Source: Candidatus Omnitrophota bacterium
GTDB taxonomy: Bacteria > Omnitrophota > Gorgyraeia > Pluralincolimonadales > Pluralincolimonadaceae
Direction: 5' to 3'
DNA length: 64,000 nucleotides
Assembly (NCBI GenBank): GCA_041651455.1
Contig: JBAZJG010000003.1
Coordinates: 83,793 to 147,792, forward strand
Part shown: positions 1 through 41,887 of the stretch, piece after piece
How positions within the stretch are numbered: the stretch's first letter is position 1
Layout: every line of letters begins with the position of its first letter
Position numbers and translations under genes: made by a program
The notes under the pieces: model-generated
Seen by the model: only the letters and a program-made list of their open reading frames with translations
Told to the model about the DNA's origin: nothing
Databases searched by the model: none

Positions 1-225
1 AGCGTCGCGGGCGACGTCTACCTGCAGGATTTCTCGAATACGAACTCGATCTTCGGTGTCAGGAGGGATGACCAGACATATACGCTGTCATCGATGCTCG
101 GGTATAACTTTTGGAAGGAAGCAGAGCTCCAATTCAGATATACATACGTAAAGGACCATTCAAATATAACGGTATACGATTATGACAGGAGCATTTACAG
201 CCTCGGCATCGAGTACAAATTTTAA
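1..225 (+). CDS. Outer-membrane beta-barrel protein, C-terminal fragment; the 5' end is outside the window.
   Basis: Open frame 1 runs to TAA at 223–225. The translation ends ...YSLGIEYKF, with alternating hydrophobic/aromatic residues and a terminal Phe typical of OMP beta-barrels. Confidence 0.45.
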   Translation, partial: SVAGDVYLQDFSNTNSIFGVRRDDQTYTLSSMLGYNFWKEAELQFRYTYVKDHSNITVYDYDRSIYSLGIEYKF

Positions 226-242
226 CAAAGGAGATACCTGAA

Positions 243-3200
243 ATGAAAGACCGCAACATCAAGATCATCGCACTGGCAGCCCTTATTATATTCGGGAGTT
301 CCGCGGCATTTGCTTCCGGTATAGGCACTATTACCTCTCTCGAAGGGAGCGTAGACCTTTTTAAGGCGGGATCGGAATCCCCGTCCGCAGCCGCGCTCGG
401 GTCCGAGATCGAGACGGGTGACTCTGTACGCACAAAGAGCGCCTCAAAGGCCGAGATAACCTTTGCGGACAAGTCGGTGGTCAGGCTTGCGGAAAAGACA
501 AAGCTTGATATTTCGGATTACAGGACAGGAGACGACGGTAAGAGGATAAACGCCGTCTTGAACGTCGAGCGCGGGAAGATAAGGGCCATCATATCGAAGT
601 CCGCGGCAAAGGACAGCTTTACCATAAATACGCCTAACGCTAAAGGCTCGGTAAAGGGAACGGACGTAGTTGTGGTGTTCCAGAAGTCTTCGACCGCGGT
701 AGCCGTGCTCAACGGCAGATACTCGTTGTCGAACCCTGCTTCGCCTGAAAAAAAGGTTGAGATAAAAGGCGGGGAGGTCTCCGTTGTTGCCGCAGATAAC
801 GAACCTTCTTCGCCCAGGCTGATGCTCGCTTCCGAAAAGAAGTCGCATGAGGCCGATACATCGGTCTCGAGAAGTGCGGTTGCCTCGTCTGACAACACGG
901 ATAATCTTCCCGTTGCCGAGGGATACAGCCAGGCCGGTGAAATGAAGGCCGTGATCATAAAATTGGCCGGAAATGTCAGGATAAAGAGCAAGGATTCGAA
1001 GACCTGGCATGACGCCAAACTAAACGAGACGGTAAGGACGGGCGATTCTATTGAGACGAAAGCGAACGGCAAGGCTGAATTTAAGATCGAGAACGGCAAT
1101 ATCATAACGCTGCAGCAGAATTCCAACGTCACGATCTCCAGGCTATCGAGGGATGGTAAGGGAGAATACGAGAACCTTTTCGAATCCACTGGCGGCAAGA
1201 TTAGGGCCCAGGTGGAGAAACTTAAGGGAAATTCGAAGTTCGAGGTCAAGACCCCCAACGCGGTGGCTTGCGTCCGCGGTACAGTCCTGTTCCTCAATAT
1301 ACTCCCGAACCTGACCAATGCATATTTCGAGGAAGGCAACGGCGTACTTAGAAGCATAATATCCGGGACCACCCAGAACGTACCCATGGGGACCGGCTCC
1401 ACGGTCGACGGGAACGGCAATATCAGCAATCCCTTACCGCCGTCAGACGACCAGAAGTCGGGCTGGCATGAGGGCTGGGAATTCGGGGGCGAGGCCGAGG
1501 GATACAGCGGGCCGGAGGGCTATACCGGAGGCGGCACCGGCGACAACGAGAATCCCGATAACGGCGCCAATAACGTATTTTCCGATAAACCTTTTACCGA
1601 CATAATAGGGCCCGGCGAGGGCGGCGATACAGGCGACGGCGGCGGGGACGGAACGGTTGTTGCTCCCGTCACGATGAACGGTACTATCGAAGGGGATTTT
1701 GGTTACGAAGGCGTCTCGGAGAATAATTTCTTCAGTTTAGCGCTTTCGAGCACTACGCCGCTGGGCGAACAGTGGTCCGGTACTATTTCAGTGAACGCGA
1801 CCGGTACATACGATAACCCTTATTATAGGGTATTTATCGGTAACGTCGAAGGCAAAGGCGTAAACGGCGGCGTGTTCTACGGCTGGAGCGGAGGCGTCAT
1901 GCACAGCTGGGACACCGTCGTATCTTCTATATATATCGACCCGTCCGGCATGGCCGGTAACCTCTTCGGAGTGCTGTCCGGTTCCAACACCGTCAACGAA
2001 ATGGACGGATATTACTGGGGCGACATGGCCGGGAACGGCGACCTTTACGTCATCCCTATGGCGCAGCTTGAGCCGGATGTCGAGTACGGTACGGTAGAAG
2101 GATGGGGCTACGGCAACCTAAACTTTGCCTTTGATAACGGCAACGGCTATGTCGAAACTGGATTTGACAGGCAAATGGCGAAGATCGAAGGCCAGGACTG
2201 GGGCATTTGGCGTGAGGCGCATTACGGCGGTTACAGCAACCCGAACGGACTTACAAACTGGAGCGCTGTCGCCGGAGGCGACTATAACGACGGGTATTTC
2301 TTCTCGCTGGCCGAGGGTACCGATAACCTTAACGGCGCCGTAAGATTCGATATCTCCGGTTCCTATCTCGACAGTTCCCATCTTGGCGCCTACTACGGCA
2401 CGATACTCGCACATGCCGGAGAAGGCATTGAAGGCACAGGCGCAGGCGGATTTGTGGAGCAGGAGCTTTCTTCCAGCACCGAACTGTTTAATTGCGCATA
2501 TTCCCCGTACCGGTATGAATACGAGTACGGTGATTATGATTACGATGGCTACGGCGGGTTCGATCATGCCGGCCACATCGGCGGCCTGGCAGGAACAGTC
2601 GGGGACCTGTGGGGAGAAGGCGGTTTCTATCTCGTATCGATAGGAGAGATGGAAGAGGACGAAGCCGGCTCTCTCAATGATTTTGTCTGGATGACCGATT
2701 TCTCAAGCGATGATAACGGAGATGAGGACATAAGGGAATACGACGGCGAGGGGCAGGAAGGTGCATATTACGGGCTGTCCTCGGTCACCGGTAAGGACGG
2801 CGTGATGAAGGGTTCCGCGCGCATCTTATATATCGATCCCGACGGCTATGCGGGCGTAAAATCCGGAAAGGTCGAAGGCGCATATTCTTCACTTGCGGGC
2901 GCGTATATGTTCGATGGGGATTTCGACAATGACCTTAATATAACGCCGGTCATAGCGGGCATAAGCGCCGAAGACCTTTCGGAATCCATATGGTCCGAAG
3001 AAAGTGACGGAAGGCTTGAAGGCGATTACTCCGGTGAAGGGTTCATCGGAGGCCAAGACGAGCTCTATACAGCCAGCATTGTGGACTATAAGAACCATAC
3101 GTCGTACGACTGGGGCATATACAGCCAAAGGCTTACTGGGGAGTATGAACTCCCGGCGGTAACGAACGGGATATTCTCCGCGAAGATGGGCGGCAACGAC

Positions 3201-6200
3201 TCGTTCGGCTGCTACAATCCCGGGCTCTCCGTCAACGGCCAGTACCAGCTCAATGACGGCGGATATTATTACTATCAATACAATGACAATAACAGCTATG
3301 GTTATACATCCGAGTACCATTATGTGGACAATACGCAGCAATATTCCAACACGAATTACTACGATGACGGGTCCACGCACACATACTCATATTCATACGA
3401 CAACAACGGGAATCTTCTTGGCGGTACTTCCGGGTACGGGACATGGGATACATCCGTGCCGCTGGCTGAGCTTATCGGGTCCGCGCCGGAGGACGCTTCC
3501 TACCTGTCATACGAGGACTCATACGTCACGGCAGAGAACGATTACGGCTACTGGATAGCGGACGTCAACGGGCAGGGAGAAGGGTGGTTCAACGGCTCGT
3601 TGAACGGCGTATTCCTGACCGGCACGAGGATGGGGACCATATCCGGCGACATAGACGGCACGTATTACGACGACGGGACCTGGATGGGTTCGGGCTCCGG
3701 CACATGGAACGGGAAGAGGCTGGCATTTAGCGGGTATTGGGGCGAAAATGAGAGCAGCCTTTATACCGACGATCCGGAAGGTTATATATCATGGGCCGGG
3801 GAGGAGCGTGGGTTAATGGGCTCCACGGAAGAGGATTGGTGGGATAACAAGTCGTTTACCGCGCGCGCAATAGGCGGATTCTGGTACGATTACGATGACG
3901 GCGTGCCGAAGCTCTGGAATACAGAGATCGAAAGCAATAACGTGGAGAAAAACAACAATACCACCCTTGACGGCGGTGCGTATTACGGCTTTACGACAGG
4001 CATCTGGAAGAACGGGCTCATGTCGGACGGCAGGGTGATAGCGATCTTCGCGGCCCCGGACGGCAGGGTCGGTATAATGAGGGGCGGCGCGGAAGGCGGA
4101 TACTACGAAGGGATAGACCTATGGCAGGCCTCTATGGACCTGTCGACTGAGATGGTCGAGGGCTATTCCTATACCCCTGAAGGCCTAAGAAACGACATCA
4201 ACGAGGAATATATCGGGGATATGGGAGTAGGCGGCTCATTCGCCGGGAACGGTACGATCTACGGCAATATTGACGAGGCATACAGCTATTCCTTGCCGGA
4301 CATGCCGTGGGGCATCTTCAACGTGAAGATGGGCGGTTGGTTCGAGAAGGATGACGGCAATATCGCCGAGAACGGCCTCGCGTTAGGTAAAAATGAAGAA
4401 GGTTACGGCGAACGCCTGCTTATCACGGCCAGGAACGTGGTCTACGATGACAACACGATCTCAGCTGACGTTGCCGGAGCGTTCATCGACCTGGAAGAAG
4501 GCATGATAGGCAGGATAAACGGCGACCTTCGCGGGACAGCGACCGACCAGTACTATTATGACGGCGGCGAATATTATAACTATACGTCATGGGCCGGCGC
4601 CGCTATCGGCGAATGGAAGAAAGAGCCGCTCGCGTATTCTGGCATAATGATGGACGGCGCGTTCGGTTATGTAGAGGATTATTACGGCGGTTTCGATGTC
4701 GATTACGGATATATGGACGGTGTATTCGGAGGGTCCGGCAACATCTGGCAGGGCCCCGCCGACCTTACCATTATCGGAGGGTTCTGGAACCCCGATTACA
4801 ATGAAGACAGGGTCCCGGACTACAAGCTATGGGCATCCGATTTCTACATAATAACGGATGACAATGCCGTCGCTTACGGTACCATGGGCGGCACCTCGCT
4901 CGACAACAGGCTTAAGGGCCTGCTTCTTTCCCTTTATATAAGGGAGACCGATGAGGGCAACCGCGCCGGTTATATCATGTCGGTAGACGATGCCGGAAAT
5001 TACGATTACTTTAACGGCGATTTCTATCCGTCGATCGGGATGTACGGAGCGGAGGGAAAACTCGCTTATTTCCTCGACATGCCGACGGATTACGATCCTA
5101 CGGTATTGCTGTCGGGCTCAGGCGAAGCGCTCGATTCGGATGATATTTACGGTGTTGTGGGCGGCGACATAGAGGGTACTCTCGACGGAGAGACGCTGGG
5201 CTTTGTGGACCAGGATTGGGGCATTTGGAGGGCGGCAAGCTCGGGCGTGTTCAACAATCCTCCGGAAAACACATGGTCAGCCGTCATGGGTGATGTAGAA
5301 GACGATTATGACGGTTTTTACTCGACATATACGCTCGCGTTCATCGACGGCACATCATGGGAAGACGGAGGTTTCAGCGCCGATATCGCCGGGCGGGTAT
5401 TGTCAAACAGGAGCCTTACTACCTTCAACGGAAAGATGCTGGGCGCGTATGATACCGAATATAACGAGTGGGAGGCACTTTCCCTCGGTGTCGCTCAGTC
5501 CGAGTATCTTACACTAAGCGGTTCATCGAGCGGAGGCATCGGCTATTACGGCGAAGGCTTCATAAACGACGGTATCACTTACGGCAACATGGGAAGCACC
5601 GTGCAGGAATGGTGGGCAAACGGGCCTTTCGATGTCGTCGCGATGGGAGAATACGAGGGATACCTCGACCGCGGTTCCTATATCGTGGGCTCAAAGGTCA
5701 ACAGCTTTAACGGTTACGACGGGTCAAACACTACTGATGACGGCGAAGGCGCGTTCTGGGGATGGACCGTAGGGACTTCCCGCAACGGGCGCCTGCCTAA
5801 CATGTATACGGCAGCGTTGTTCATTTCTCCCGGCGAAGACGGCAACCAGGCAGGCATACTGCGCGGAAGCATGAACGGGAACACCTTCGCGATGCCCAAT
5901 GAATACCTCGATTACGGCGATGACATGGAGGTCGGGCTGTGGCAGGCCGATGGTACTTTGACGCCGACCGTCATGATGAATTATATACCGATGGGAGCGG
6001 CTGACTTCGTAGACAGTATAGAGATAGACTCGGACGCCTTCACCGCGTGCGGTAAAGGCGTTATAAACGGCAATCCGCTTGAAGCGCAGATTTCACAGGC
6101 GTCTATAGCGAATATTGAGGCATATGATACATGGGGTATAGTCAACGGTATCATGTTCGCGCAATCGAATGCCGTCGTGACCGACGGCGTATGGCAGACG

Positions 6201-6926
6201 GCCTTAGGAGGCGTAGTGCCTGACGATACGTATGACGACAGCTACCTGCTGTTTTCCGCGAAAGGCACCAGCAGTATCTGGGATTTTAAGAACGGGGATG
6301 TCAGGGAAGGAGATGTCGACGGTTCGTTCAGGGGCGTATACCTTGCGCCGGAGCACTGGGACAGCGAGACGGAGCGCTACACGGCTATGAATATAGGCCG
6401 CGTCGAAGGCGATATCTCAGGCTTCTATGAAGCGGGCGTAGATACGACCATCCAGGCCGCGTTCGTCGGCGAATGGGTAGACCTCGCCGAGCTTGACACA
6501 AGCATGATCGGATTCGATAATGTCGTGCTTGCGGAGATGGTAAGCGTCCCGATCACCGAAACCTATTCGGCCCTGCTTCAGGGTAACGGAGCGTTCGGCG
6601 CCGCGGGCGCGATCACCGGTAATATGGACATAAGCTTCTACGCGCAGAACGCACTCGACCTGAACGGAATATGGGCGGCGCTCTTCAACGGAAGCTATTC
6701 AGGATACACCGGCGGAAACGACTGGAACATAAACTACAGCAACGATGCCGGCGTTAACGCGACGTTGACAGGAACGCAGTGGAGCGAAGGCCAGTGGATG
6801 GCCAACGTTTCAGGGACCGCTCCCGGTGACGTCAACTTCAACGGACAGGCCGGCGGCACCTACACGGGCACCGAAACGGGCACGTTCGAAGGCGCAGGCG
6901 CCGGAACCTGGAATACCGGAAATTGA
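243..6926 (+). CDS. Giant secreted protein (2227 aa) with an N-terminal signal peptide and two tandem FecR-like domains. A long acidic Gly/Tyr/Asp/Asn/Trp-rich body is made of degenerate ~300–400 aa repeat modules.
   Basis: AAGGAG RBS about 8 nt upstream of the ATG. Signal peptide MKDRNIKIIALAALIIFGSSAAFASG. FecR-like blocks (…TPNAKGSVKGTDVVVV…, …KTPNAVACVRGTVLF…). Recurring YIDP[SD]G.AG and [DY]WGI[WYF] motifs. Confidence 0.85.
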   Translation: MKDRNIKIIALAALIIFGSSAAFASGIGTITSLEGSVDLFKAGSESPSAAALGSEIETGDSVRTKSASKAEITFADKSVVRLAEKTKLDISDYRTGDDGKRINAVLNVERGKIRAIISKSAAKDSFTINTPNAKGSVKGTDVVVVFQKSSTAVAVLNGRYSLSNPASPEKKVEIKGGEVSVVAADNEPSSPRLMLASEKKSHEADTSVSRSAVASSDNTDNLPVAEGYSQAGEMKAVIIKLAGNVRIKSKDSKTWHDAKLNETVRTGDSIETKANGKAEFKIENGNIITLQQNSNVTISRLSRDGKGEYENLFESTGGKIRAQVEKLKGNSKFEVKTPNAVACVRGTVLFLNILPNLTNAYFEEGNGVLRSIISGTTQNVPMGTGSTVDGNGNISNPLPPSDDQKSGWHEGWEFGGEAEGYSGPEGYTGGGTGDNENPDNGANNVFSDKPFTDIIGPGEGGDTGDGGGDGTVVAPVTMNGTIEGDFGYEGVSENNFFSLALSSTTPLGEQWSGTISVNATGTYDNPYYRVFIGNVEGKGVNGGVFYGWSGGVMHSWDTVVSSIYIDPSGMAGNLFGVLSGSNTVNEMDGYYWGDMAGNGDLYVIPMAQLEPDVEYGTVEGWGYGNLNFAFDNGNGYVETGFDRQMAKIEGQDWGIWREAHYGGYSNPNGLTNWSAVAGGDYNDGYFFSLAEGTDNLNGAVRFDISGSYLDSSHLGAYYGTILAHAGEGIEGTGAGGFVEQELSSSTELFNCAYSPYRYEYEYGDYDYDGYGGFDHAGHIGGLAGTVGDLWGEGGFYLVSIGEMEEDEAGSLNDFVWMTDFSSDDNGDEDIREYDGEGQEGAYYGLSSVTGKDGVMKGSARILYIDPDGYAGVKSGKVEGAYSSLAGAYMFDGDFDNDLNITPVIAGISAEDLSESIWSEESDGRLEGDYSGEGFIGGQDELYTASIVDYKNHTSYDWGIYSQRLTGEYELPAVTNGIFSAKMGGNDSFGCYNPGLSVNGQYQLNDGGYYYYQYNDNNSYGYTSEYHYVDNTQQYSNTNYYDDGSTHTYSYSYDNNGNLLGGTSGYGTWDTSVPLAELIGSAPEDASYLSYEDSYVTAENDYGYWIADVNGQGEGWFNGSLNGVFLTGTRMGTISGDIDGTYYDDGTWMGSGSGTWNGKRLAFSGYWGENESSLYTDDPEGYISWAGEERGLMGSTEEDWWDNKSFTARAIGGFWYDYDDGVPKLWNTEIESNNVEKNNNTTLDGGAYYGFTTGIWKNGLMSDGRVIAIFAAPDGRVGIMRGGAEGGYYEGIDLWQASMDLSTEMVEGYSYTPEGLRNDINEEYIGDMGVGGSFAGNGTIYGNIDEAYSYSLPDMPWGIFNVKMGGWFEKDDGNIAENGLALGKNEEGYGERLLITARNVVYDDNTISADVAGAFIDLEEGMIGRINGDLRGTATDQYYYDGGEYYNYTSWAGAAIGEWKKEPLAYSGIMMDGAFGYVEDYYGGFDVDYGYMDGVFGGSGNIWQGPADLTIIGGFWNPDYNEDRVPDYKLWASDFYIITDDNAVAYGTMGGTSLDNRLKGLLLSLYIRETDEGNRAGYIMSVDDAGNYDYFNGDFYPSIGMYGAEGKLAYFLDMPTDYDPTVLLSGSGEALDSDDIYGVVGGDIEGTLDGETLGFVDQDWGIWRAASSGVFNNPPENTWSAVMGDVEDDYDGFYSTYTLAFIDGTSWEDGGFSADIAGRVLSNRSLTTFNGKMLGAYDTEYNEWEALSLGVAQSEYLTLSGSSSGGIGYYGEGFINDGITYGNMGSTVQEWWANGPFDVVAMGEYEGYLDRGSYIVGSKVNSFNGYDGSNTTDDGEGAFWGWTVGTSRNGRLPNMYTAALFISPGEDGNQAGILRGSMNGNTFAMPNEYLDYGDDMEVGLWQADGTLTPTVMMNYIPMGAADFVDSIEIDSDAFTACGKGVINGNPLEAQISQASIANIEAYDTWGIVNGIMFAQSNAVVTDGVWQTALGGVVPDDTYDDSYLLFSAKGTSSIWDFKNGDVREGDVDGSFRGVYLAPEHWDSETERYTAMNIGRVEGDISGFYEAGVDTTIQAAFVGEWVDLAELDTSMIGFDNVVLAEMVSVPITETYSALLQGNGAFGAAGAITGNMDISFYAQNALDLNGIWAALFNGSYSGYTGGNDWNINYSNDAGVNATLTGTQWSEGQWMANVSGTAPGDVNFNGQAGGTYTGTETGTFEGAGAGTWNTGN

Positions 6927-6928
6927 TC

Positions 6929-7213
6929 ATGCGATATGTATTCGCATTAGTATTAGCGCTGTTGATAACAGGATGCGGGAGGCCGGCTGAAAAGCCGGCT
7001 TCCGCAGTTTCGGAGGGAAGGATCATCGCCACAGTTAACGGAGAGCCGATATTCGACAAGGACCTGAAGCTCTCGCTCGCACTGAAGCTGAAGGATGACC
7101 CCTCGATGCAGATAAAGCCCTCTACCATGAGCGAACAGCTGCAGACGCTTATAGACGAACGCCTTAAGCTGCAAAGCAAGACACGCGAGAATTCCGAGAT
7201 AGTGATCAAATAA
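6929..7213 (+). CDS. Small lipoprotein with a SurA-N-domain-like segment; possibly a truncated chaperone remnant.
   Basis: MRYVFALVLALLITGCGR has a lipobox (LITGC). …RIIATVNGEPIFDKDL… resembles the SurA/PpiD N-terminus. The track ORF begins at a TTG at 6923, but an in-frame ATG at 6929 is more likely. It overlaps the stop of the giant gene. Confidence 0.45.
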   Translation: MRYVFALVLALLITGCGRPAEKPASAVSEGRIIATVNGEPIFDKDLKLSLALKLKDDPSMQIKPSTMSEQLQTLIDERLKLQSKTRENSEIVIK

Positions 7214-7313: not shown

Positions 7314-8492
7314 GTGAAACAGCCTGACATTAAGGGCCATTTTGGCGTCTTTGGAGGCAAATATGTACCAGAGACGCTGATGACTGCGCTCGAAGAGCTC
7401 GAGGGCGCCTATAAGGCCGCAAAAAAAGACAAAAAATTCTCCGAACAGTTCCGCTATTACCTTGAGGAGTACGCCGGAAGGCCGAGTAACCTTTATCGCG
7501 CCGGAAGGCTCAGCGATTTCCTGAAAGGCCCGAAGATCTACCTTAAAAGGGAAGACCTTCTTCATACGGGTTCCCATAAGATCAATAACACGCTGGGCCA
7601 GGGGCTGCTTACCGTAAGGATGGGCAAGAAGAGGATCATCGCCGAGACAGGTGCGGGACAGCACGGTGTTGCCACGGCGACAGTCGCGGCGCTTTTCGGC
7701 CTCGAATGCGAGGTCTTCATGGGCGAGGAGGATGTGCGCCGGCAATCATTGAACGTTTTCAGGATGAAATTGCTCGGCGCGAAGGTGACCCCGGTCACGA
7801 GCGGCAGCAAGACCCTTAAGGACGCCATGAACGAGACGATGAGGGACTGGGTCACGAACGTCCGCAACACACATTACTGCATAGGTTCGGTCGCGGGCCC
7901 GCACCCTTTTCCGATGATGGTAAGGGATTTCCAGTCCGTAATAGGTGCGGAGGCCAGGAAACAGATACTTAAGGCGGAACGCAGGCTGCCGGACTATCTT
8001 ATCGCCTGCGTCGGCGGCGGATCGAATTCCATGGGCCTGTTCTACAGGTTCCTCGACGATAAAAGCGTAAAGTTCATCGGCGTGGAAGCGGCGGGAAAGG
8101 GGCTTTCTACCGGGATGCACGCCGCGACGCTAGAAAAAGGCGATATAGGGGTCCTGCACGGGAGTAAGAGCTACCTGCTGCAGGATGAAGCGGGCCAGGT
8201 AAAGATTGCGCACTCCGTCTCCGCCGGGCTCGATTACCCGGGAGTAGGGCCTGAGCACGCTTATTTCAAGGAAACGGGCAGGGCGAGATACGTATCCGTG
8301 ACCGACAAGGAAGCATTGGGGGCCTTCCGTATGTTATCTGAGACCGAAGGTATAATACCCGCCCTCGAATCATCCCATGCGATCGCGTACCTTGCGAAGA
8401 TATCGAAGAAACTCAGGAAGAGCGATATCGTGGTCGTATGCCTTTCCGGAAGAGGCGACAAGGACGTGGACATGGTCTCGCGGATACTATAA
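7314..8492 (+). CDS. trpB: Tryptophan synthase beta chain.
   Basis: PLP-lysine motif …HTGSHKINN…, GGGSN motif and full-length homology pattern (392 aa). GTG start preceded by AAAGGGG. Confidence 0.95.
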
Positions 8493-8499
8493 GAATAAT

Positions 8500-9294
8500 A
8501 TGAACAGAATAGACAAAAAATTCAGGGAACTTAAAAAGCTAAAACAGAAGGCGCTGATAGCCTTCTTCACCGCAGGCGATTACGGCCTGGCGAACACAAA
8601 GAAACTCGTCCTCGAGTTCGCATCACGCGGTGTGGACATTATAGAGCTCGGTGTCCCATTCTCCGACCCCGTAGCGGACGGCCCGACAATACAGATATCG
8701 TCCGAAAGGGCCCTCAAGAGAGGCACCAAACTCAAGGATATAATCGCCGCCGTAAAGGAACTCAGGAAATATACCGAAGTACCGATAGTTCTCATGGGTT
8801 ATTATAACCCTATATTGAAATACGGAGTAAGCAGGTTTGTGTCCGATTGCTCTAAGAGCGGGATCGACGGCGTCATTATACCCGACCTGCCTCCGGAAGA
8901 GTCGGGCGAGCTCATCGGACCGTCGAGGGAGAAGGGGTTCGCAACCATATTCCTGCTGAGCCCGACAAGTACCGCAAAGAGGATAAAGCTCGTCTCGGGA
9001 AGATCGAGGGGATTCATCTATTATGTCTCTCTGACCGGGATAACCGGCGCCAGGTCGTCATTACCCGCGGAGCTTGCGCAAAGGGTAAATCTTATCAAGA
9101 GGCATTCTAAGCTGCCGGTATGCGTAGGTTTCGGTGTATCGAGCCCCGGACAGGTCAGGCAGGTATGCCGCGCGGCCGACGGGGTAATAGTCGGTTCTGC
9201 GATAGTCAAGGAGATTGAGAGGAATTCCGGGAAAAAGCAGTTCATACGCAAAGTAGGCGAATATGTGCAAAAACTGACGGAGGCGGCCCATTAA
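8500..9294 (+). CDS. trpA: Tryptophan synthase alpha chain.
   Basis: Starts at M42 of the track ORF (MNRIDKKFRELK…), 8 nt after the trpB stop. TIM-barrel TrpA pattern (…GVPFSDPVADGPTIQ…, …YVSLTGITG…). Confidence 0.9.
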   Translation: MNRIDKKFRELKKLKQKALIAFFTAGDYGLANTKKLVLEFASRGVDIIELGVPFSDPVADGPTIQISSERALKRGTKLKDIIAAVKELRKYTEVPIVLMGYYNPILKYGVSRFVSDCSKSGIDGVIIPDLPPEESGELIGPSREKGFATIFLLSPTSTAKRIKLVSGRSRGFIYYVSLTGITGARSSLPAELAQRVNLIKRHSKLPVCVGFGVSSPGQVRQVCRAADGVIVGSAIVKEIERNSGKKQFIRKVGEYVQKLTEAAH

Positions 9295-18199: not shown

Positions 18200-18276
18200 C
18201 GGGGCGTGGCTCAGTTTGGTAGAGCACTTGTATGGGGTACAAGTGGTCAGCGGTTCGAGTCCGCTCGCCCCGACCA
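18200..18276 (+). tRNA. tRNA-Pro (anticodon GGG), with CCA encoded.
   Basis: Hand-folded cloverleaf. Acceptor CGGGGCG/CGCCCCG (C1:G72, typical of bacterial tRNA-Pro). D-stem GCTC/GAGC. Anticodon stem CTTGT/ACAAG with loop ATGGGGT (anticodon GGG). T-stem AGCGG/CCGCT with TTCGAGT loop. Discriminator A then CCA. Confidence 0.85.
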
Positions 18277-33926: not shown

Positions 33927-35318
33927 ATGAAGAAGTTTTTATTGGTAATAGGTTTGGTGATTGCAGCTATATGTATATATATCCTTAGCATCATATTCGC
34001 GCCGGTACCTTCACTCGATAGCTCTTTAAGTAAATTGAAGGCGCAAGGAATACCTACTACGCTTGAGGAATTAATACCTTTCGAACTTCCTGATTCCGAG
34101 AACGGCGCATTGATATACAAAGAAGCTTTTAGAATATTAGATACTTTTGAGCAAAAATACAGTGTTGGCGAAAAGCATTCCAGGAAATACAAGGATGACT
34201 GGAAATATCTGATAGGCAGAGAAGAATATTTGAATGCCCCTGCAGATAAGAAAAAGGAGATAGGTCAAATAGTTATGAACGATCCTGACCTTAATAAAAT
34301 ATATAGCCTTGTTAATAAAGCGAGCCGAATGAAATGCCAATTCCATAAGAGAGCCGAATATAAAAAAGGATTCGTAATGGAAACGGGGGAATTCGGCCAG
34401 GCCAGAAATTGCGCGAGATTATTGTCGGTGAAAGCCTGCATCGAATCTGAACTAAAATTACACGATGAAGCAGTGAATAGTTCTTCCCTGATATTGAGAA
34501 TTTCTTCTTCTTTTGAAAATGAACCCAGTATAATTGCTCAACTTGTAAGGGAAGCAATATGTCTTATTGGTTTAGATACATTAAGAAGTAATGATGCTGT
34601 TTTCGATGCAAAAGATGCTATCAACGAAAATTGTCTCGATGTATTATCAAAAACGAATAATAGAAGCGCCGTGGAAAACGGTTTTAAAGGTGAACCTATT
34701 TTGGCATATTATACATGCGCCGACCTTCTGAATAACAGCAAGGCTAATCAATTCGATTCGCTCAAGGCTATTGGAATTCTCGCGGAAAAGCCATCATTAT
34801 ACTCAATCCATTTTTATCTTTTGGGCTGTTTTAATCCTAGAAAGCTAATAAACGAACAAATGATATATTATTTTGACGAAATGTCTAAAGCATACGTTGT
34901 CCTGAAAATGCCTTATCATGAAGGTAGTATAATATTGAAGGACTTGATTGATAAAATGGCATCTGGGCGCGGCAAAGAAATGATTCTTGTAAATTTAATA
35001 TATCCTGGAGTCGATAGATACTATACAAGAAGTGAGGAAATAGGCGCCTATATCGATATTGCTTCCTTAGGCGTCGCTAATAGGTTGTATAAGTCAAAAC
35101 ACGGCAGATTTGCCGATTCTCTTGGCCAATTGTCGCCCGGAATATTACCATCGGTCCCTAAAGACCCGTTCTCGGGAAATGATTACGTATACAAAAAAGA
35201 AGGGGACGGTTTCATCATCTACAGCCTCGGAAAGAACATGAAGGATGATAACGGCAAATTCGAGAAAATGGGCACGAAAGGCGATTTTGATATTTCGTGG
35301 CGGGACTCAGGTAAATAA
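33927..35318 (+). CDS. Low-GC hypothetical membrane-anchored protein with a pseudopilin (GspG)-like C-terminal tail but no prepilin leader.
   Basis: Single N-terminal TM helix (MKKFLLVIGLVIAAICIYILSIIFA) without the G/F-T-L-x-E prepilin motif. C-terminus …PKDPFSGNDYVYKKEGDGFIIYSLGKNMKDDNGKFEKMGTKGDFDISW matches the T2SS major pseudopilin C-terminal pattern. GC is visibly lower than in the neighbours. Confidence 0.6.
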   Translation: MKKFLLVIGLVIAAICIYILSIIFAPVPSLDSSLSKLKAQGIPTTLEELIPFELPDSENGALIYKEAFRILDTFEQKYSVGEKHSRKYKDDWKYLIGREEYLNAPADKKKEIGQIVMNDPDLNKIYSLVNKASRMKCQFHKRAEYKKGFVMETGEFGQARNCARLLSVKACIESELKLHDEAVNSSSLILRISSSFENEPSIIAQLVREAICLIGLDTLRSNDAVFDAKDAINENCLDVLSKTNNRSAVENGFKGEPILAYYTCADLLNNSKANQFDSLKAIGILAEKPSLYSIHFYLLGCFNPRKLINEQMIYYFDEMSKAYVVLKMPYHEGSIILKDLIDKMASGRGKEMILVNLIYPGVDRYYTRSEEIGAYIDIASLGVANRLYKSKHGRFADSLGQLSPGILPSVPKDPFSGNDYVYKKEGDGFIIYSLGKNMKDDNGKFEKMGTKGDFDISWRDSGK

Positions 35319-39856: not shown

Positions 39857-41887
39857 GTGAATAAGATAGACCTACATATACACACAATTCCTACAGTGAG
39901 CGACTCCCCCTTCAGCTTCAAACTCGCCACATTACGGAGATACGTCGTTGAAGCAGCTTTGGATGCCATTGCCATAACGAACCACAATGTATTTGACCGC
40001 AGTCAGTTCACAGCAATTGACAACGAACTGGATGTTGTTGTCTTCCCCGGGATAGAAGTTACCCTCGACTGCGGGCACATTCTCATAATCAGTGACATAG
40101 CCAAGCTGAACCAGTTCGAGAAACAGGCTCAGCAACTTCACAGCCGCATTACCCAAGCTCATGACAGCATCACTATTGATGAGCTTACAAAAATCTTCCA
40201 TAATTTAGAGGAGTACCTGGTCATTCCACATTATGATAAGAAACCAGCAATCAAAGACGATGCTCTGAAACGCATGGCGAAATACGTATCGGCTGGTGAG
40301 GTGGATAGCGCCAAGAAATTCATCCGTGCAATCAAGGACGACGCAAAAGTTACACCGGTCCTTTTCAGCGACATTCGAATCGGCGATACACTCGATAACA
40401 TTCCTACTAGACAGACCTTTGTTGACTGCGGCGAGGTTACGTTGGCTGCCCTCAAGAAATGCCTGCAAGACAAAGGGAAGGTTGCCCTGTCTGAAGCCCA
40501 TGGGAATAGCCTTTTCCAGATTTTTGACGACGGCCAGAAGTTATCTACAGGACTCAACATCCTTCTAGGTGAGAGATCGTCAGGGAAAACATACACCCTA
40601 GATAAAATCAATGCATCGCATGACCAAGTAAAATACATCAAACAGTTCTCGTTGGTGCAACAAGATGAAGTCGCGTGTGAACGCGAATTCAGCCGAGATC
40701 TCCAGAGAACCAGGAGCCAATTTATCGAAGAATACCTATCAAGGTTCAAGATTGTTCTAAATGATGTTATGAATGTCGACCTGTATTCTGATGATCGAGA
40801 AGTTGACAATTACATCCTTAATCTTCATGAGGCTGCGGAGGAAGCAGACAGGAGAGACGCCTTCTCAAATTGCGCACTATTTGATGAATCGGAGTTTTCG
40901 ATTAGCGATGATAAGGTACTGATTGAGTTGATAGCATCAATTAGGCAGATAATACAGAATGTTGAATACCAACCAATCATTAATAAATATGTGGACCGTC
41001 AGTCGCTCAAGCAGCTTGCAGTAGAACTAATTGAATTGCTCTGGGCAAGAGGACGTGAATGGAAGAAGAAGACTATAGTAAACGAGATGGTACTTGAGAT
41101 TCGGCAGGCGCTGAAGAGACGCACGTCTACGGTTCAGGTTCCCGACGTAAATCTCTACCGCGTGAGCTTAAACAAAAAAAAGGTTGAAACATTCTCCGAG
41201 ATTGTAAAATGTCTCCAAGAACATGCAGTAATCTCAGAGGAACCTATCCAGAGGTTCCGGGTTATTGCGACAAAGGATCCCTTCGCGGGAGCAGGCGAGA
41301 TTAAATCTATAAGTGGGGTAAAGACGACATTCCGTGAATCGTTTGCGGAATACGCACACCCCTATAAGTATCTACAGGCGTTGCTATCCAATGATGATTT
41401 GACTCGCTCAGAAATATACAAGTATTTTGTGAAGATAACCTACAGTATTCTAAACCCGGATGGATTCGAAGTATCTGGTGGTGAGCGATCAGAGTTTAGG
41501 CTACTTCAAGCGATCAAGGATGCACAAAACTATGACATTCTACTGGTCGATGAACCAGAGTCCTCCTTCGACAACCTATTTCTCCGGAGCGATGTCAACA
41601 AAATCATCAAAGAGATTTCGGAGACGATGCCAGTAGTTGTGGTTACTCACAACAGCACTGTGGGTGCGTCGGTTGGTGCCGATTATCTCCTGTATGCAAG
41701 GAAGGAGATAGAGGAAGGCAAAGTAGTCTACAGATTGTACTCTGGCTATCCAACGGACCTAACTCTTCACTCCCTCGACGGCAAAGCGATCAGCAACTAT
41801 CAGATCACAATGAATTCACTTGAGGCGGGCTGCGAAGCCTACGATAACAGGAGGAATGGATATGAAGCTATTAGAGATAAGGGATAA
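39857..41887 (+). CDS. Fusion protein with an N-terminal PHP-family phosphoesterase domain and a C-terminal ABC/SMC-type (OLD/AAA_15-21-like) ATPase; candidate defence nuclease-ATPase.
   Basis: PHP His motifs (IDLHIHT, AITNHN, IPHYD) in the first ~200 aa. Walker A LLGERSSGKTY, ABC signature-like SGGERSE, Walker B ILLVDEPESSFD, and H-loop VVVTHN. GTG start. Markedly lower GC and AT-rich third codon positions. Confidence 0.8.
   Translation: MNKIDLHIHTIPTVSDSPFSFKLATLRRYVVEAALDAIAITNHNVFDRSQFTAIDNELDVVVFPGIEVTLDCGHILIISDIAKLNQFEKQAQQLHSRITQAHDSITIDELTKIFHNLEEYLVIPHYDKKPAIKDDALKRMAKYVSAGEVDSAKKFIRAIKDDAKVTPVLFSDIRIGDTLDNIPTRQTFVDCGEVTLAALKKCLQDKGKVALSEAHGNSLFQIFDDGQKLSTGLNILLGERSSGKTYTLDKINASHDQVKYIKQFSLVQQDEVACEREFSRDLQRTRSQFIEEYLSRFKIVLNDVMNVDLYSDDREVDNYILNLHEAAEEADRRDAFSNCALFDESEFSISDDKVLIELIASIRQIIQNVEYQPIINKYVDRQSLKQLAVELIELLWARGREWKKKTIVNEMVLEIRQALKRRTSTVQVPDVNLYRVSLNKKKVETFSEIVKCLQEHAVISEEPIQRFRVIATKDPFAGAGEIKSISGVKTTFRESFAEYAHPYKYLQALLSNDDLTRSEIYKYFVKITYSILNPDGFEVSGGERSEFRLLQAIKDAQNYDILLVDEPESSFDNLFLRSDVNKIIKEISETMPVVVVTHNSTVGASVGADYLLYARKEIEEGKVVYRLYSGYPTDLTLHSLDGKAISNYQITMNSLEAGCEAYDNRRNGYEAIRDKG

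What the first reader, a model, noticed from the sequence alone, without database searches (positions are those of the whole stretch)
243..6926. Giant 2227-aa secreted protein with tandem FecR domains and degenerate ~300–400 aa repeat modules marked by YIDP[SD]G-AG and [DY]WGI[WYF] motifs.
After a signal peptide come two FecR-like domains (aa ~30–190 and ~230–350). The remaining ~1850 aa are strongly acidic and enriched in G, Y, D, N, T, S and W, with almost no Cys. Reading the translation shows at least four recurring modules. Each has a motif such as SIYIDPSGMAG, ILYIDPDGYAG, IFAAPDGRVG or LFISPGEDGNQAG. About 80–85 residues later each has a DWGIW, YDWGIY, MPWGIF or DTWGIV motif. A fifth, more degenerate module carries QDWGIWR and AYFLDMPTD. 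This modularity suggests a huge beta-rich surface fibre, S-layer-like shield or adhesin. An outer-membrane beta-barrel gene ends 18 nt upstream, which may be a secretion or anchoring partner. I know of no characterised family with this motif pair.
Basis: seen in the sequence. Interest (0 to 1): 0.7.

Follow-up and report, generated by a model that had tools for sequence, protein, structure and literature searches.

The report
Giant FecR beta-barrel-bead envelope protein
A 2227-residue secreted protein of an uncultured Omnitrophota bacterium is built from two FecR domains followed by about eleven copies of an undescribed small beta-barrel-like domain, and it always sits next to a dedicated outer-membrane pore and usually next to a CHASE2 sensor phosphatase, so it is probably the exported "antenna" of an envelope-spanning sensing or adhesion device rather than a plain fibre.

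Summary
Window 243..6926 (+) is one uninterrupted 2227-aa ORF with a Sec signal peptide, two FecR domains and an acidic G/Y/D/N/W-rich tail.

The internal repeats are real but only 17-23% identical, so self-BLASTP sees nothing. A family profile finds 4 full and 3 partial copies of a ~316-aa module and gives no hits in shuffled controls. Each module models (pLDDT 85) as two ~8-stranded meander beta-domains that are distantly related to each other. It has no Pfam match and no close solved fold.

The module family has 549 cluster representatives. All complete members carry an N-terminal FecR domain.

In 14 of 14 loci, spanning Omnitrophota and Desulfobacterota, the gene directly follows a TPR + 14-strand beta-barrel OMP. 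That OMP family borders DUF2860 and SlipAM (type XI secretion). In 11 of 13 informative loci a CHASE2-PP2C (SpoIIE) phosphatase is adjacent, and a SurA-like lipoprotein usually follows.

Best reading: a Slam-like OMP exports the barrel modules, while the FecR domains couple to the CHASE2 sensor. Export and signalling are inferred, not shown.

The parts
1..225 (+). 3' end (last 74 codons plus stop) of the partner outer-membrane protein, a 502-aa TPR + 14-strand beta-barrel. It ends ...GIEYKF, a classical OMP C-terminal signal.
228..233 (+). Shine-Dalgarno-like AAGGAG, 9 nt before the ATG. The intergenic gap is 17 nt, which suggests co-transcription with the OMP gene.
   Evidence: Read from the sequence.
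243..6926 (+). Giant gene: a 2227-aa secreted FecR-domain protein with repeated beta-domain modules.
   Evidence: P0001 is identical and is named by NCBI 'FecR family protein [Candidatus Omnitrophota bacterium]'.
243..314 (+). Signal peptide, aa 1-24, with the cleavage motif AFA|S. It contains no Cys, so the product is not a lipoprotein.
   Evidence: Read from the translation. This is an inference from the sequence pattern.
420..719 (+). FecR domain 1 (Pfam best stretch, aa 60-159).
930..1292 (+). FecR domain 2 (aa ~230-350). The same stretch gives sub-threshold hits to DUF7354, to the LapA retention module, and to LipL45/Lsa33.
1413..1682 (+). Gly/Glu/Pro-rich linker, aa 391-480 (26% Gly, D+E 16 against K+R 2). 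It begins with the conserved W-x-EGW...GAEGY-x-P-x-G junction.
   Evidence: The same junction is present in the short paralogue of L012.
1683..2144 (+). Leading half-module (B-type beta-domain), aa 481-634, containing SIYIDPSGMAG.
2145..3119 (+). Module 1 (A+B), aa 635-959, with WGIW at 652 and YIDPDG at 861.
   Evidence: iE 1.2e-66. (leave-out profile, 5.6e-53).
3120..3482 (+). Tyr/Asn-rich variable loop insertion, aa 960-1080, inside the first beta-domain of module 2. It accounts for the single ~400-aa period.
   Evidence: This is the least conserved region of the protein (identity 0.17).
3483..4250 (+). Module 2, aa 1081-1336. Its WGIY motif lies at aa 956, before the insertion.
4251..5162 (+). 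Module 3, aa 1337-1640, with PWGIF at 1355 and LYIRETDEGNRAGY at 1563.
5163..6140 (+). Module 4, aa 1641-1966. This is the module that was modelled. It forms two consecutive ~8-strand antiparallel meander beta-domains.
6093..6605 (+). Half-module 5 (A-type), aa 1951-2121.
6606..6923 (+). C-terminal half-module 6 (A-type), aa 2122-2227. It is the best-conserved part of the tail and is a candidate export or docking domain.
   Evidence: (58% identity to P0008 over aa 2018-2226).
6929..7213 (+). Small lipoprotein of 94 aa (lipobox LITGC) with a SurA-N-like 'VNGEPI' segment. It is a candidate periplasmic chaperone of the cassette.
   Evidence: Homologues lie downstream of the giant gene in L001-L005, L007, L009, L010 and L019. 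The Pfam SurA_N_3 match is only faint in L003 and L004.

Best explanation
The gene encodes the extracytoplasmic component of a conserved envelope cassette. The gene order is CHASE2-PP2C phosphatase, then a TPR + 14-strand beta-barrel OMP, then the giant FecR protein, then a small SurA-like lipoprotein.

Proposed mechanism:
1. The protein is exported by Sec.
2. The small lipoprotein and the periplasmic TPR domain of the OMP keep it competent for export.
3. The OMP, a distant relative of Slam / type XI secretion barrels, passes the acidic string of about eleven small beta-domains to the cell surface. The conserved C-terminal domain probably acts as the targeting element.
4. The two neutral-to-basic FecR domains stay in the periplasm behind the Gly-rich linker. 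There they contact the periplasmic CHASE2 domain of the membrane PP2C phosphatase.
5. Events at the surface, such as contact or binding by the variable middle modules, change the activity of the phosphatase. The phosphatase then acts through a STAS / anti-sigma partner switch.

Shown here:
- the modules and their predicted fold;
- the domain composition;
- the gene linkage and its breadth.

Inferred:
- export through the OMP;
- the topology, with FecR inside and the modules outside;
- the FecR-CHASE2 contact;
- the downstream pathway.
For: Modules:
- A 316-position profile finds 7 copies, shuffled controls give none, and a leave-out profile still finds all seven.
- The AF2 model of module 4 has pLDDT 85 and pTM 0.83 and is an all-beta meander of about 8 + 8 strands.
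- The two halves of the module are related (hhalign probability 87%, E 4e-6).

Family:
- 549 representatives reach E<=1e-3 and 310 reach E<=1e-30.
- 118 of 158 carry the N-terminal FecR region. The three members with a signal peptide that the family profile missed also have FecR by Pfam, together with Big_13/PKD Ig-like domains. The remainder start inside a module and appear to be fragments.

OMP link:
- The OMP lies immediately upstream in 14 of 14 loci, including OMP homologues only 30-37% identical and a Desulfobacteraceae MAG.
- The gap in the window is 17 nt with an RBS.

OMP anatomy and relatives:
- The model shows periplasmic TPR plus 14 strands, and its best structural matches are the 14-stranded CymA and OmpG.
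- This is the architecture that the literature describes for type XI secretion OMPs, whose cargo share an eight-stranded beta-barrel (PMC8406197).
- Family members reach Pfam SlipAM: P0072 scores 27.4 bits against a cut-off of 22.
- 13 of the 120 listed homologues carry precomputed PF04575, and one homologue is named 'Surface lipoprotein assembly m...' by UniRef.

CHASE2 link:
- A CHASE2-SpoIIE gene lies within 10 kb in 11 of 13 informative loci, in differing outer contexts and once in permuted order.
- Elsewhere, FecR proteins sit next to CHASE2-cyclases in L015 and L016.
- They also sit next to CHASE2 histidine kinases in Burkholderia and Pseudomonas (PMC5192318).
- S. meliloti CyaD1 (SMc02176) has the locus tag consecutive with that of the FecR protein SMc02177 (PMC5498481).
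- S. meliloti CHASE2 cyclases sense a host protein through an OM beta-barrel, NsrA (PMC13001267).
- STAS, and a HATPase_c_2 kinase, lie near the cassette in L003 and L004.

Polarity of the protein:
- The FecR part has K+R 52 against D+E 45, while the rest has D+E 283 against K+R 64.
- Conservation is highest at the FecR domains (0.49-0.55), the linker (0.42) and the C-terminal domain (0.43). It is lowest in the middle modules (0.17-0.33).
Against: - There is no direct evidence for surface exposure or for any protein-protein contact.
- The window's own OMP does not reach Pfam SlipAM. Its best hit is a marginal DUF2860 match at 24.2 bits against a cut-off of 22.9.
- Two loci with the OMP-giant pair (L021, L022) have no CHASE2 gene within 9-10 kb, so signalling may be an add-on rather than the core function.
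- A 14-strand pore is narrow for folded domains, so export would need unfolded or stepwise passage.
Confidence: 0.45

Rival explanations
1. The protein is a purely structural surface adhesin or fibre, essentially the first reader's view. The OMP exports or anchors a long string of beta-domains that bind prey, host or substrate. The FecR domains serve only as a periplasmic plug or anchor, in the manner of the LapA retention module. The CHASE2 phosphatase is a neighbour with no direct functional link.
For: - The OMP-giant pair is kept without any CHASE2 gene in L021 and L022.
- Some family members insert Ig-like Big_13/PKD domains that are typical of adhesins.
- The middle modules are variable.
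- FecR domain 2 gives a weak match to the LapA retention module (30 bits against a cut-off of 50) and to the Leptospira adhesins Lsa33 and Lsa19.
Against: - CHASE2-PP2C accompanies the pair in 11 of 13 loci, across different outer contexts and in a permuted order.
- FecR-CHASE2 adjacency recurs with three different output domains in unrelated phyla (PMC5192318; PMC5498481). That is hard to explain if FecR is only an anchor.
- The retention-module and Lsa matches are well below their cut-offs.
Confidence: 0.27
2. The protein is an entirely periplasmic sensor or scaffold. The whole protein stays in the periplasm, attached to the periplasmic TPR domain of the OMP. The barrel serves as an anchor or as an entry pore for a ligand, in the way NsrA does for the S. 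meliloti CHASE2 cyclases. The FecR domains relay to CHASE2.
For: - The precedent of CHASE2 cyclases that need an OM beta-barrel to perceive an external protein (PMC13001267).
- The LysM-FecR partners of CHASE2 kinases are periplasmic (PMC5192318).
- The giant protein has no recognisable secretion motif.
- The best structural matches of the OMP barrel are substrate channels, CymA and OmpG.
Against: - About 1,800 residues carrying roughly 220 net negative charges is a very large periplasmic load for an ultra-small cell.
- The pattern of a variable middle with conserved ends, and the Ig-like inserts in relatives, fit an exposed protein better.
- The tight 1:1 OMP-cargo synteny, the TPR + 14-strand architecture and the SlipAM-bordering homology fit a translocon.
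Confidence: 0.2
3. The modules are membrane-embedded 8-stranded barrels, so the protein is a poly-barrel outer-membrane protein.
Against: - The tail is extremely acidic and hydrophilic (D+E 283 against K+R 64).
- The protein ends ...GAGTWNTGN and has no C-terminal aromatic OMP signal, whereas the neighbouring OMP ends ...EYKF.
Confidence: 0.03
4. The protein is a canonical FecR anti-sigma factor of a FecI/FecR/FecA iron-signalling system, as the database name 'FecR family protein' suggests.
For: A Pfam FecR match.
Against: - The N-terminus is a cleavable signal peptide, not a cytoplasmic anti-sigma domain followed by a transmembrane helix.
- No ECF sigma factor or TonB-dependent transducer gene lies within 10 kb on either side.
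- The domain is duplicated and is followed by about 1,800 aa of unrelated modules.
Confidence: 0.01

Closest known systems
Type XI secretion / Slam systems (DUF560/SlipAM OMP plus cargo such as TbpB, HpuA, hemophilin, NilC)
   Same: - The OMP has an N-terminal periplasmic TPR domain and a 14-strand barrel (architecture as described in PMC8406197).
- The cargo gene is directly adjacent.
- The cargo is built of small ~8-stranded beta-domains and has a conserved C-terminal one.
- The OMP family contains members that pass the SlipAM threshold.
   Different: - The window's OMP itself does not reach SlipAM. Its closest family is DUF2860, and only marginally.
- The hosts are Omnitrophota and Desulfobacterota, whereas the cited papers describe T11SS in Proteobacteria.
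- The cargo is 1.2-7 kaa long with up to 24 profile matches, rather than one handle plus one barrel.
- The cargo is not a lipoprotein.
- It carries FecR domains and is linked to a CHASE2 phosphatase.
- No TbpB-type barrel is detectable by sequence.
FecR-domain protein plus CHASE2 sensor gene pairs (the LysM-FecR COG4254 / PA4035-type proteins with a CHASE2 histidine kinase in the 'BiofilmReg' operon, and S. meliloti SMc02177 next to CyaD1)
   Same: A signal-peptide-bearing FecR-domain protein is encoded next to a membrane sensor with an extracytoplasmic CHASE2 domain (PMC5192318; PMC5498481).
   Different: - The output here is a PP2C/SpoIIE phosphatase rather than a kinase or cyclase.
- There is no LysM domain.
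- The FecR domain is duplicated.
- It is fused to about 1,800 aa of novel modules.
- A dedicated OMP is part of the cassette.
S. meliloti NsrA-CHASE2 cyclase pathway
   Same: CHASE2 receptors perceive an external protein signal with the help of an outer-membrane beta-barrel (PMC13001267).
   Different: Relatedness of NsrA to this OMP was not tested. That system contains no giant modular protein.
LapA/MpIBP-type giant adhesins with an N-terminal retention module
   Same: The layout is conceptually similar: a folded N-terminal periplasmic domain, then a linker that could thread an OM pore, then a long string of repeated beta-domains outside. FecR domain 2 gives a weak hit to NF033682.
   Different: - The score of 30 bits is below the cut-off of 50.
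- The protein has a Sec signal peptide, not a C-terminal T1SS signal.
- There are no RTX repeats.
- No ABC/MFP/TolC genes are nearby.
Leptospira FecR-domain lipoproteins LipL45 / Lsa33 / Lsa19
   Same: These are the best NCBIfam matches of the FecR region (108, 92 and 37 bits).
   Different: All three scores are far below the cut-offs (350, 420 and 250). The protein has no lipobox. Those proteins lack the modules.

Membership tests
Pfam FecR domain (PF04773) | Match above the gathering score | tested here: met
   88.8 bits against a cut-off of 24, in two stretches (aa 60-159 and ~230-350)..
Canonical FecR anti-sigma factor (FecI-FecR-FecA cell-surface signalling) | An N-terminal cytoplasmic anti-sigma domain followed by a single transmembrane helix | tested here: not met
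   The N-terminus is a cleavable signal peptide, and FecR begins about 30 aa after it.
Canonical FecR anti-sigma factor (FecI-FecR-FecA cell-surface signalling) | Adjacent ECF sigma factor and TonB-dependent transducer genes | tested here: not met
   Neither is among the called genes within 10 kb on either side in L001 or L002.
Type XI secretion system (Slam/DUF560) | The OMP matches SlipAM/DUF560 (PF04575) above threshold | tested here: not met
   - There is no PF04575 hit at E<=5 for the barrel of this OMP or of five orthologues. The best hits are DUF2860 at 24.2 bits against 22.9, and BBP2_2 below its cut-off.
- Family member P0072 does pass, at 27.4 bits against 22.
- 13 of the 120 listed homologues carry precomputed PF04575.
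- Homology to the superfamily is therefore likely, but membership is not shown.
Type XI secretion system (Slam/DUF560) | A periplasmic TPR domain plus a 14-stranded barrel | tested here: met
Type XI secretion system (Slam/DUF560) | The cargo is encoded next to the OMP | tested here: met
   14 of 14 loci.
Type XI secretion system (Slam/DUF560) | The cargo ends in an eight-stranded TbpB-type beta-barrel | tested here: inconclusive
Type XI secretion system (Slam/DUF560) | OMP-dependent surface exposure or secretion of the cargo | not testable with these tools
   This needs an experiment.
FecR-CHASE2 sensor pair (COG4254 / BiofilmReg type) | A secreted FecR-domain protein encoded next to a CHASE2 transmembrane sensor | tested here: met
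   CHASE2 scores 199.7 bits and SpoIIE 170.8 bits in L001 5862-7757. The gene is present in 11 of 13 informative loci.
FecR-CHASE2 sensor pair (COG4254 / BiofilmReg type) | A LysM domain in the FecR protein, with a histidine kinase and response regulator as output | tested here: not met
   No LysM domain was found. The output is PP2C/SpoIIE.
LapA-type retention-module adhesins (T1SS) | A retention-module match above the cut-off, plus T1SS genes and RTX repeats | tested here: not met
   NF033682 scores 30.1 bits against a cut-off of 50. No ABC, MFP or TolC genes lie in the locus. Pfam finds no RTX hit.
Synthase-dependent exopolysaccharide porins (PgaA, BcsC) | TPR plus a 16-strand barrel, with synthase genes adjacent | tested here: not met
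   The model has 14 strands. PgaA scores 15 bits against 367 and BcsC 13 bits against 858. No synthase genes lie nearby.

The most novel reading that the evidence does not exclude
This would be a previously undescribed trans-envelope contact-sensing machine. A Slam-like TPR-barrel pore holds a giant protein across the outer membrane. The variable acidic beta-barrel 'beads' probe the outside, for example the surface of a host or prey cell of these ultra-small bacteria. The periplasmic FecR domains switch a CHASE2-PP2C phosphatase, which drives a partner-switching response. If true, it would give CHASE2 domains their first defined protein partner. It would also extend type-XI-like secretion beyond the Proteobacteria, to giant non-lipoprotein cargo.
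Probability: 0.3. Interest if true: 0.8.

Novelty: new variant of a known kind. Interest (0 to 1): 0.6.

Why it matters
- CHASE2 is a widespread extracytoplasmic sensor domain. Its signals are essentially unknown, apart from the S. meliloti case. A conserved cassette that ties a FecR-domain protein and an OMP to a CHASE2 phosphatase gives a concrete and testable partner.
- The ~316-aa double beta-domain module is a sizeable undescribed domain family: 549 representatives at 50% identity, in proteins of up to about 7,000 aa.
- The OMP-cargo pair looks like a distant, non-proteobacterial cousin of type XI secretion carrying giant cargo. That bears on how large proteins reach the surface of diderm bacteria.
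- For Omnitrophota, which are uncultured, ultra-small and probably host-dependent, it identifies a candidate surface-contact and signalling device that is distinct from the far larger "giant genes" already discussed in the literature.

Tried and rejected
1. Self-BLASTP of the protein gave no off-diagonal hit at E<=10. It is a sensitivity problem, because the copies are only 17-23% identical. Profile searches with controls settle the question.
2. Pfam on each module, on the insertion and on the C-terminal 277 aa found nothing at E<=5. For the whole protein, NCBIfam gave only sub-threshold FecR-type hits.
5. The search for related loci with the 21-sequence alignment failed because no stretch was conserved enough. 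The 9-sequence alignment worked.
6. The context look-up of the Desulfonema ishimotonii OMP homologue (P0225) found no record.
7. The two bioRxiv preprints on Omnitrophota giant proteins (10.1101/2023.11.21.568195 and 10.64898/2026.06.07.730766) mention neither FecR nor CHASE2.
8. These secretion and sorting routes were considered and rejected:
- Autotransporter: there is no C-terminal 12-strand barrel.
- Two-partner secretion: the OMP has TPR rather than POTRA domains, and 14 rather than 16 strands.
- T1SS RTX adhesin: rejected for the reasons given under the LapA comparison.
- PEP-CTERM sorting: only the small minus-strand neighbour has that tag.

Full report
**The observation**

Window 243..6926 (+) is a single open frame of 2227 codons. 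It starts 17 nt after the TAA of a truncated upstream ORF whose last 74 residues end ...GIEYKF. That ORF gives weak outer-membrane-barrel Pfam hits. An AAGGAG lies 9 nt before the ATG.

The product begins with a Sec-type signal peptide (…SSAAFA|SG) and has no lipobox.

Pfam finds FecR twice, at 88.8 bits against a cut-off of 24. The hits lie at aa 60-159 and at about aa 230-350.

Downstream of aa 400 the protein is strongly acidic, with D+E 283 against K+R 64. It is rich in G, Y, D, N, T, S and W, and the whole protein has 4 Cys.

The WGI-type motifs recur every 303-305 residues, except for one interval of 399.

**Are the repeats more than composition?**

Self-BLASTP finds no off-diagonal match, even at E<=10. 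However, BLASTP of the protein against its homologues gives many out-of-register matches. For example, aa 1641-1966 matches P0007 616-936 at 1.8e-19, while aa 3-894 matches P0007 2-868.

I seeded a profile with one module of P0007 and iterated it on the 22 family proteins. It converged to 316 positions and 135 domain hits. In this protein it hits these segments:

| Segment (aa) | Coverage | Domain E-value |
|---|---|---|
| 389-628 | partial | 1.2e-34 |
| 635-959 | full | 1.2e-66 |
| 1081-1340 | near-full | 3.3e-67 |
| 1337-1641 | full | 3.8e-56 |
| 1641-1966 | full | 4e-69 |
| 1951-2111 | half | 1.7e-15 |
| 2122-2225 | half | 2.5e-16 |

The same profile gives no hit at E<=10 on the reversed sequences, or on five locally shuffled versions of every family protein. 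A profile built without this protein and its two close relatives still finds all seven segments.

Within this protein the copies share only 17-23% identity over matched columns. That explains the BLASTP failure.

The 399-residue interval is caused by a Tyr/Asn-rich insertion (aa 960-1080) inside module 2.

**What a module is**

I modelled module 4 (aa 1641-1966) with an alignment of 30 modules. The result has pLDDT 85 and pTM 0.83. It is an all-beta meander of about eight long strands (residues 1-129) followed by about eight more (133-290).

The two halves are distantly homologous (hhalign probability 87%, E 4e-6). The half-modules at the C-terminus correspond to the first half.

Counting halves, the tail holds about eleven beta-domains, six of type A and five of type B.

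- NspA;
- DUF3224;
- the barrels of LbpB, TbpB, HpuA and hemophilin;
- dirigent proteins.

Foldseek finds nothing significant. Pfam finds nothing on any module at E<=5. I could not inspect coordinates, so "barrel" rests on these matches and on the strand pattern.

**The family**

The module profile finds 549 proteins at E<=1e-3 among 1.84 billion representatives, and 310 at E<=1e-30. Some reach 6,991 aa with 24 matched stretches.

Named members are all "FecR family protein" or "hypothetical protein" from Candidatus Omnitrophota/Omnitrophica. The species-representative genome scan returned Omnitrophota MAGs, some of them labelled Planctomycetia.

Of 158 sequences examined, 118 carry the N-terminal FecR region. 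The remainder start inside a module and so appear to be fragments. The three exceptions have signal peptides, and Pfam shows that they too carry FecR, followed by Ig-like Big_13/PKD domains.

**Gene context**

The contig that carries the identical protein shows what lies upstream of the window. The order is:
- trpG-D-C-F;
- a PilZ protein;
- an M48 peptidase;
- a DinG-like helicase;
- a 631-aa CHASE2 + SpoIIE/PP2C protein (199.7 and 170.8 bits);
- a minus-strand PEP-CTERM protein;
- the 502-aa TPR + barrel OMP;
- the giant gene;
- a 94-aa lipoprotein;
- trpB-trpA.

I scanned all fetched loci with local profiles. The OMP lies immediately upstream of a module-bearing FecR protein in 14 of 14 loci. 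These include loci reached through OMP homologues only 30-37% identical, and a Desulfobacteraceae MAG in which an IS200-type transposase has been inserted between the two genes.

A CHASE2-PP2C gene lies within 10 kb in 11 of 13 informative loci. In one of them it lies downstream, in permuted order. It is absent from L021 and L022.

A homologue of the small lipoprotein follows the giant gene in at least nine loci. This lipoprotein has the lipobox LITGC and a SurA-N-like "VNGEPI" segment.

STAS, and an RsbW-like HATPase_c_2 gene, lie near the cassette in L003 and L004.

**The OMP**

By sequence, the barrel of the window's OMP reaches only DUF2860 (24.2 bits against 22.9) and a sub-threshold BBP2_2 hit. 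It does not reach SlipAM/DUF560.

The family does straddle that boundary:
- P0072 passes SlipAM at 27.4 bits against a cut-off of 22.
- 13 of the 120 listed profile hits carry precomputed PF04575.
- One Desulfonema homologue is named "Surface lipoprotein assembly m…" by UniRef.
- Another homologue is named "DUF2860 family protein".

The literature describes type XI secretion OMPs as a periplasmic TPR domain plus a 14-stranded DUF560 barrel. Their adjacent cargo share an eight-stranded beta-barrel (PMC8406197).

The anatomy here is therefore the same. Sequence membership is not met for this protein, and the structural similarity of the cargo is non-specific.

**The CHASE2 link**

FecR-domain proteins next to CHASE2 sensors are a recurrent pattern:
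- CHASE2-cyclases in L015 and L016.
- A short FecR paralogue directly after a CHASE2-PP2C gene in L012. It has the same post-FecR junction motif but no modules and no OMP.
- LysM-FecR proteins next to CHASE2 histidine kinases in Burkholderiales and Pseudomonas (PMC5192318).
- S. meliloti CyaD1 (SMc02176), whose locus tag is consecutive with that of the FecR-domain protein SMc02177 (PMC5498481).

In S. meliloti the CHASE2 cyclases respond to a host protein through an outer-membrane beta-barrel, NsrA (PMC13001267). That is an experimental precedent for an OMP-assisted CHASE2 pathway. The same group found that SMc02177 itself is not required for signal perception.

**Polarity of the protein**

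The FecR part is neutral to basic (K+R 52, D+E 45). Everything after it is highly acidic.

Across eight relatives, identity to this protein varies by region (invariant columns show the same pattern):

| Region | Identity |
|---|---|
| FecR domains | 0.49-0.55 |
| Gly-rich linker | 0.42 |
| Last half-module | 0.43 |
| Middle modules | 0.17-0.33 |

Conserved ends around a variable middle fit a protein that is anchored or recognised at both ends and exposed in between.

**Interpretation**

The best-supported reading is an envelope device:
1. The protein is exported by Sec.
2. The lipoprotein and the TPR domain chaperone it.
3. The Slam-like barrel translocates the acidic beta-domain string.
4. 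The FecR domains remain periplasmic behind the linker.
5. The FecR domains couple to CHASE2-PP2C, and through it to a partner switch.

The modules, the fold class, the domain make-up and the linkage statistics are shown. Export, topology, the FecR-CHASE2 contact and the output pathway are inferred. I put 0.45 on the full model.

Rivals:
- A purely structural adhesin or fibre with FecR as a plug (0.27). The two loci without CHASE2 and the Ig-like inserts in relatives favour it.
- A wholly periplasmic sensor or scaffold that uses the OMP as anchor or ligand gate (0.2).
- A membrane-embedded poly-barrel (0.03).
- A canonical FecR anti-sigma factor (0.01). The architecture and the context exclude it.

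**Novelty**

The database name, "FecR family protein", describes under a fifth of the protein.

The module is an undescribed domain family. The four-gene cassette is not mentioned in the two preprints on Omnitrophota giant proteins that I checked. Its parts each resemble known kinds: a T11SS-like OMP and cargo, and a FecR-CHASE2 pair.

I therefore rate it a new variant of known kinds rather than categorically new.

Noticed in passing
window 7314-9294 (trpB, trpA), with L001 1-2514 and L002 1-455: The cassette sits inside the tryptophan operon, together with a PilZ protein, an M48 peptidase and a DinG-like helicase. It lies between trpF and trpB in this genome and in a relative whose giant protein is 45-48% identical. 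In other relatives the cassette has quite different neighbours, such as MlaEFD and STAS/RsbW-like genes.
   Followed up: partly
L001 7770-8294 (-), about 2 kb upstream of window position 1: A 174-aa gene lies on the opposite strand between the CHASE2-PP2C gene and the OMP gene. It ends in a PEP-CTERM sorting tag (20.2 bits against a cut-off of 16). A 171-aa gene with no Pfam hit lies in the same place in L002.
   Followed up: no
window 33927-35318 and 39857-41887: Two ORFs of 463 and 676 aa lie in stretches of clearly lower G+C (0.43-0.45 against ~0.54) and have no Pfam match at 1e-5. The surrounding genes are housekeeping genes: pantothenate kinase, GroEL, IMPDH, GMP synthase and DnaE.
   Followed up: no
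L012 1547-5553: This is a 'minimal' paralogous arrangement. A CHASE2-PP2C gene is followed directly by a 689-aa protein. That protein has one FecR domain, the same W-x-EGW…GAEGY junction, an acidic thrombospondin-like D-rich stretch and an unrelated C-terminal part. It has no modules, and there is no OMP gene. The OMP therefore travels with the modules rather than with FecR.
   Followed up: partly
L015 1780-8219 and L016 6409-13967: In MAGs of other phyla, large FecR-domain proteins (726-1231 aa) are followed by CHASE2-adenylate/guanylate cyclases. This is the same pairing with a different output domain.
   Followed up: partly
L022 11740-12282: In a Desulfobacteraceae MAG an IS200/Y1-type transposase gene is inserted between the OMP homologue and its 2495-aa module-bearing FecR protein. 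The region also encodes several other very large Ig-like/invasin-type proteins and a SurA-like rotamase.
   Followed up: no
L003 14042-15662 and L019 15234-17078: In two distant loci the giant gene is followed by the same trio: a SurA-like protein, a ~180-aa HAMP-containing protein and a ~160-aa protein with no known domain. These may be further cassette members that this window's lineage has lost or moved.
   Followed up: no
window 18200-18273: One tRNA gene. It is the only Rfam match at gathering score in the 64-kb window.
   Followed up: no
window 930-1140 (aa 230-300 of the giant protein): FecR domain 2 also gives sub-threshold matches to Pfam DUF7354 (26 bits against 31.4) and to the LapA 'retention module' (30 bits against 50). 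This hints that the FecR-like fold and the periplasmic plug domains of giant adhesins may be related.
   Followed up: no
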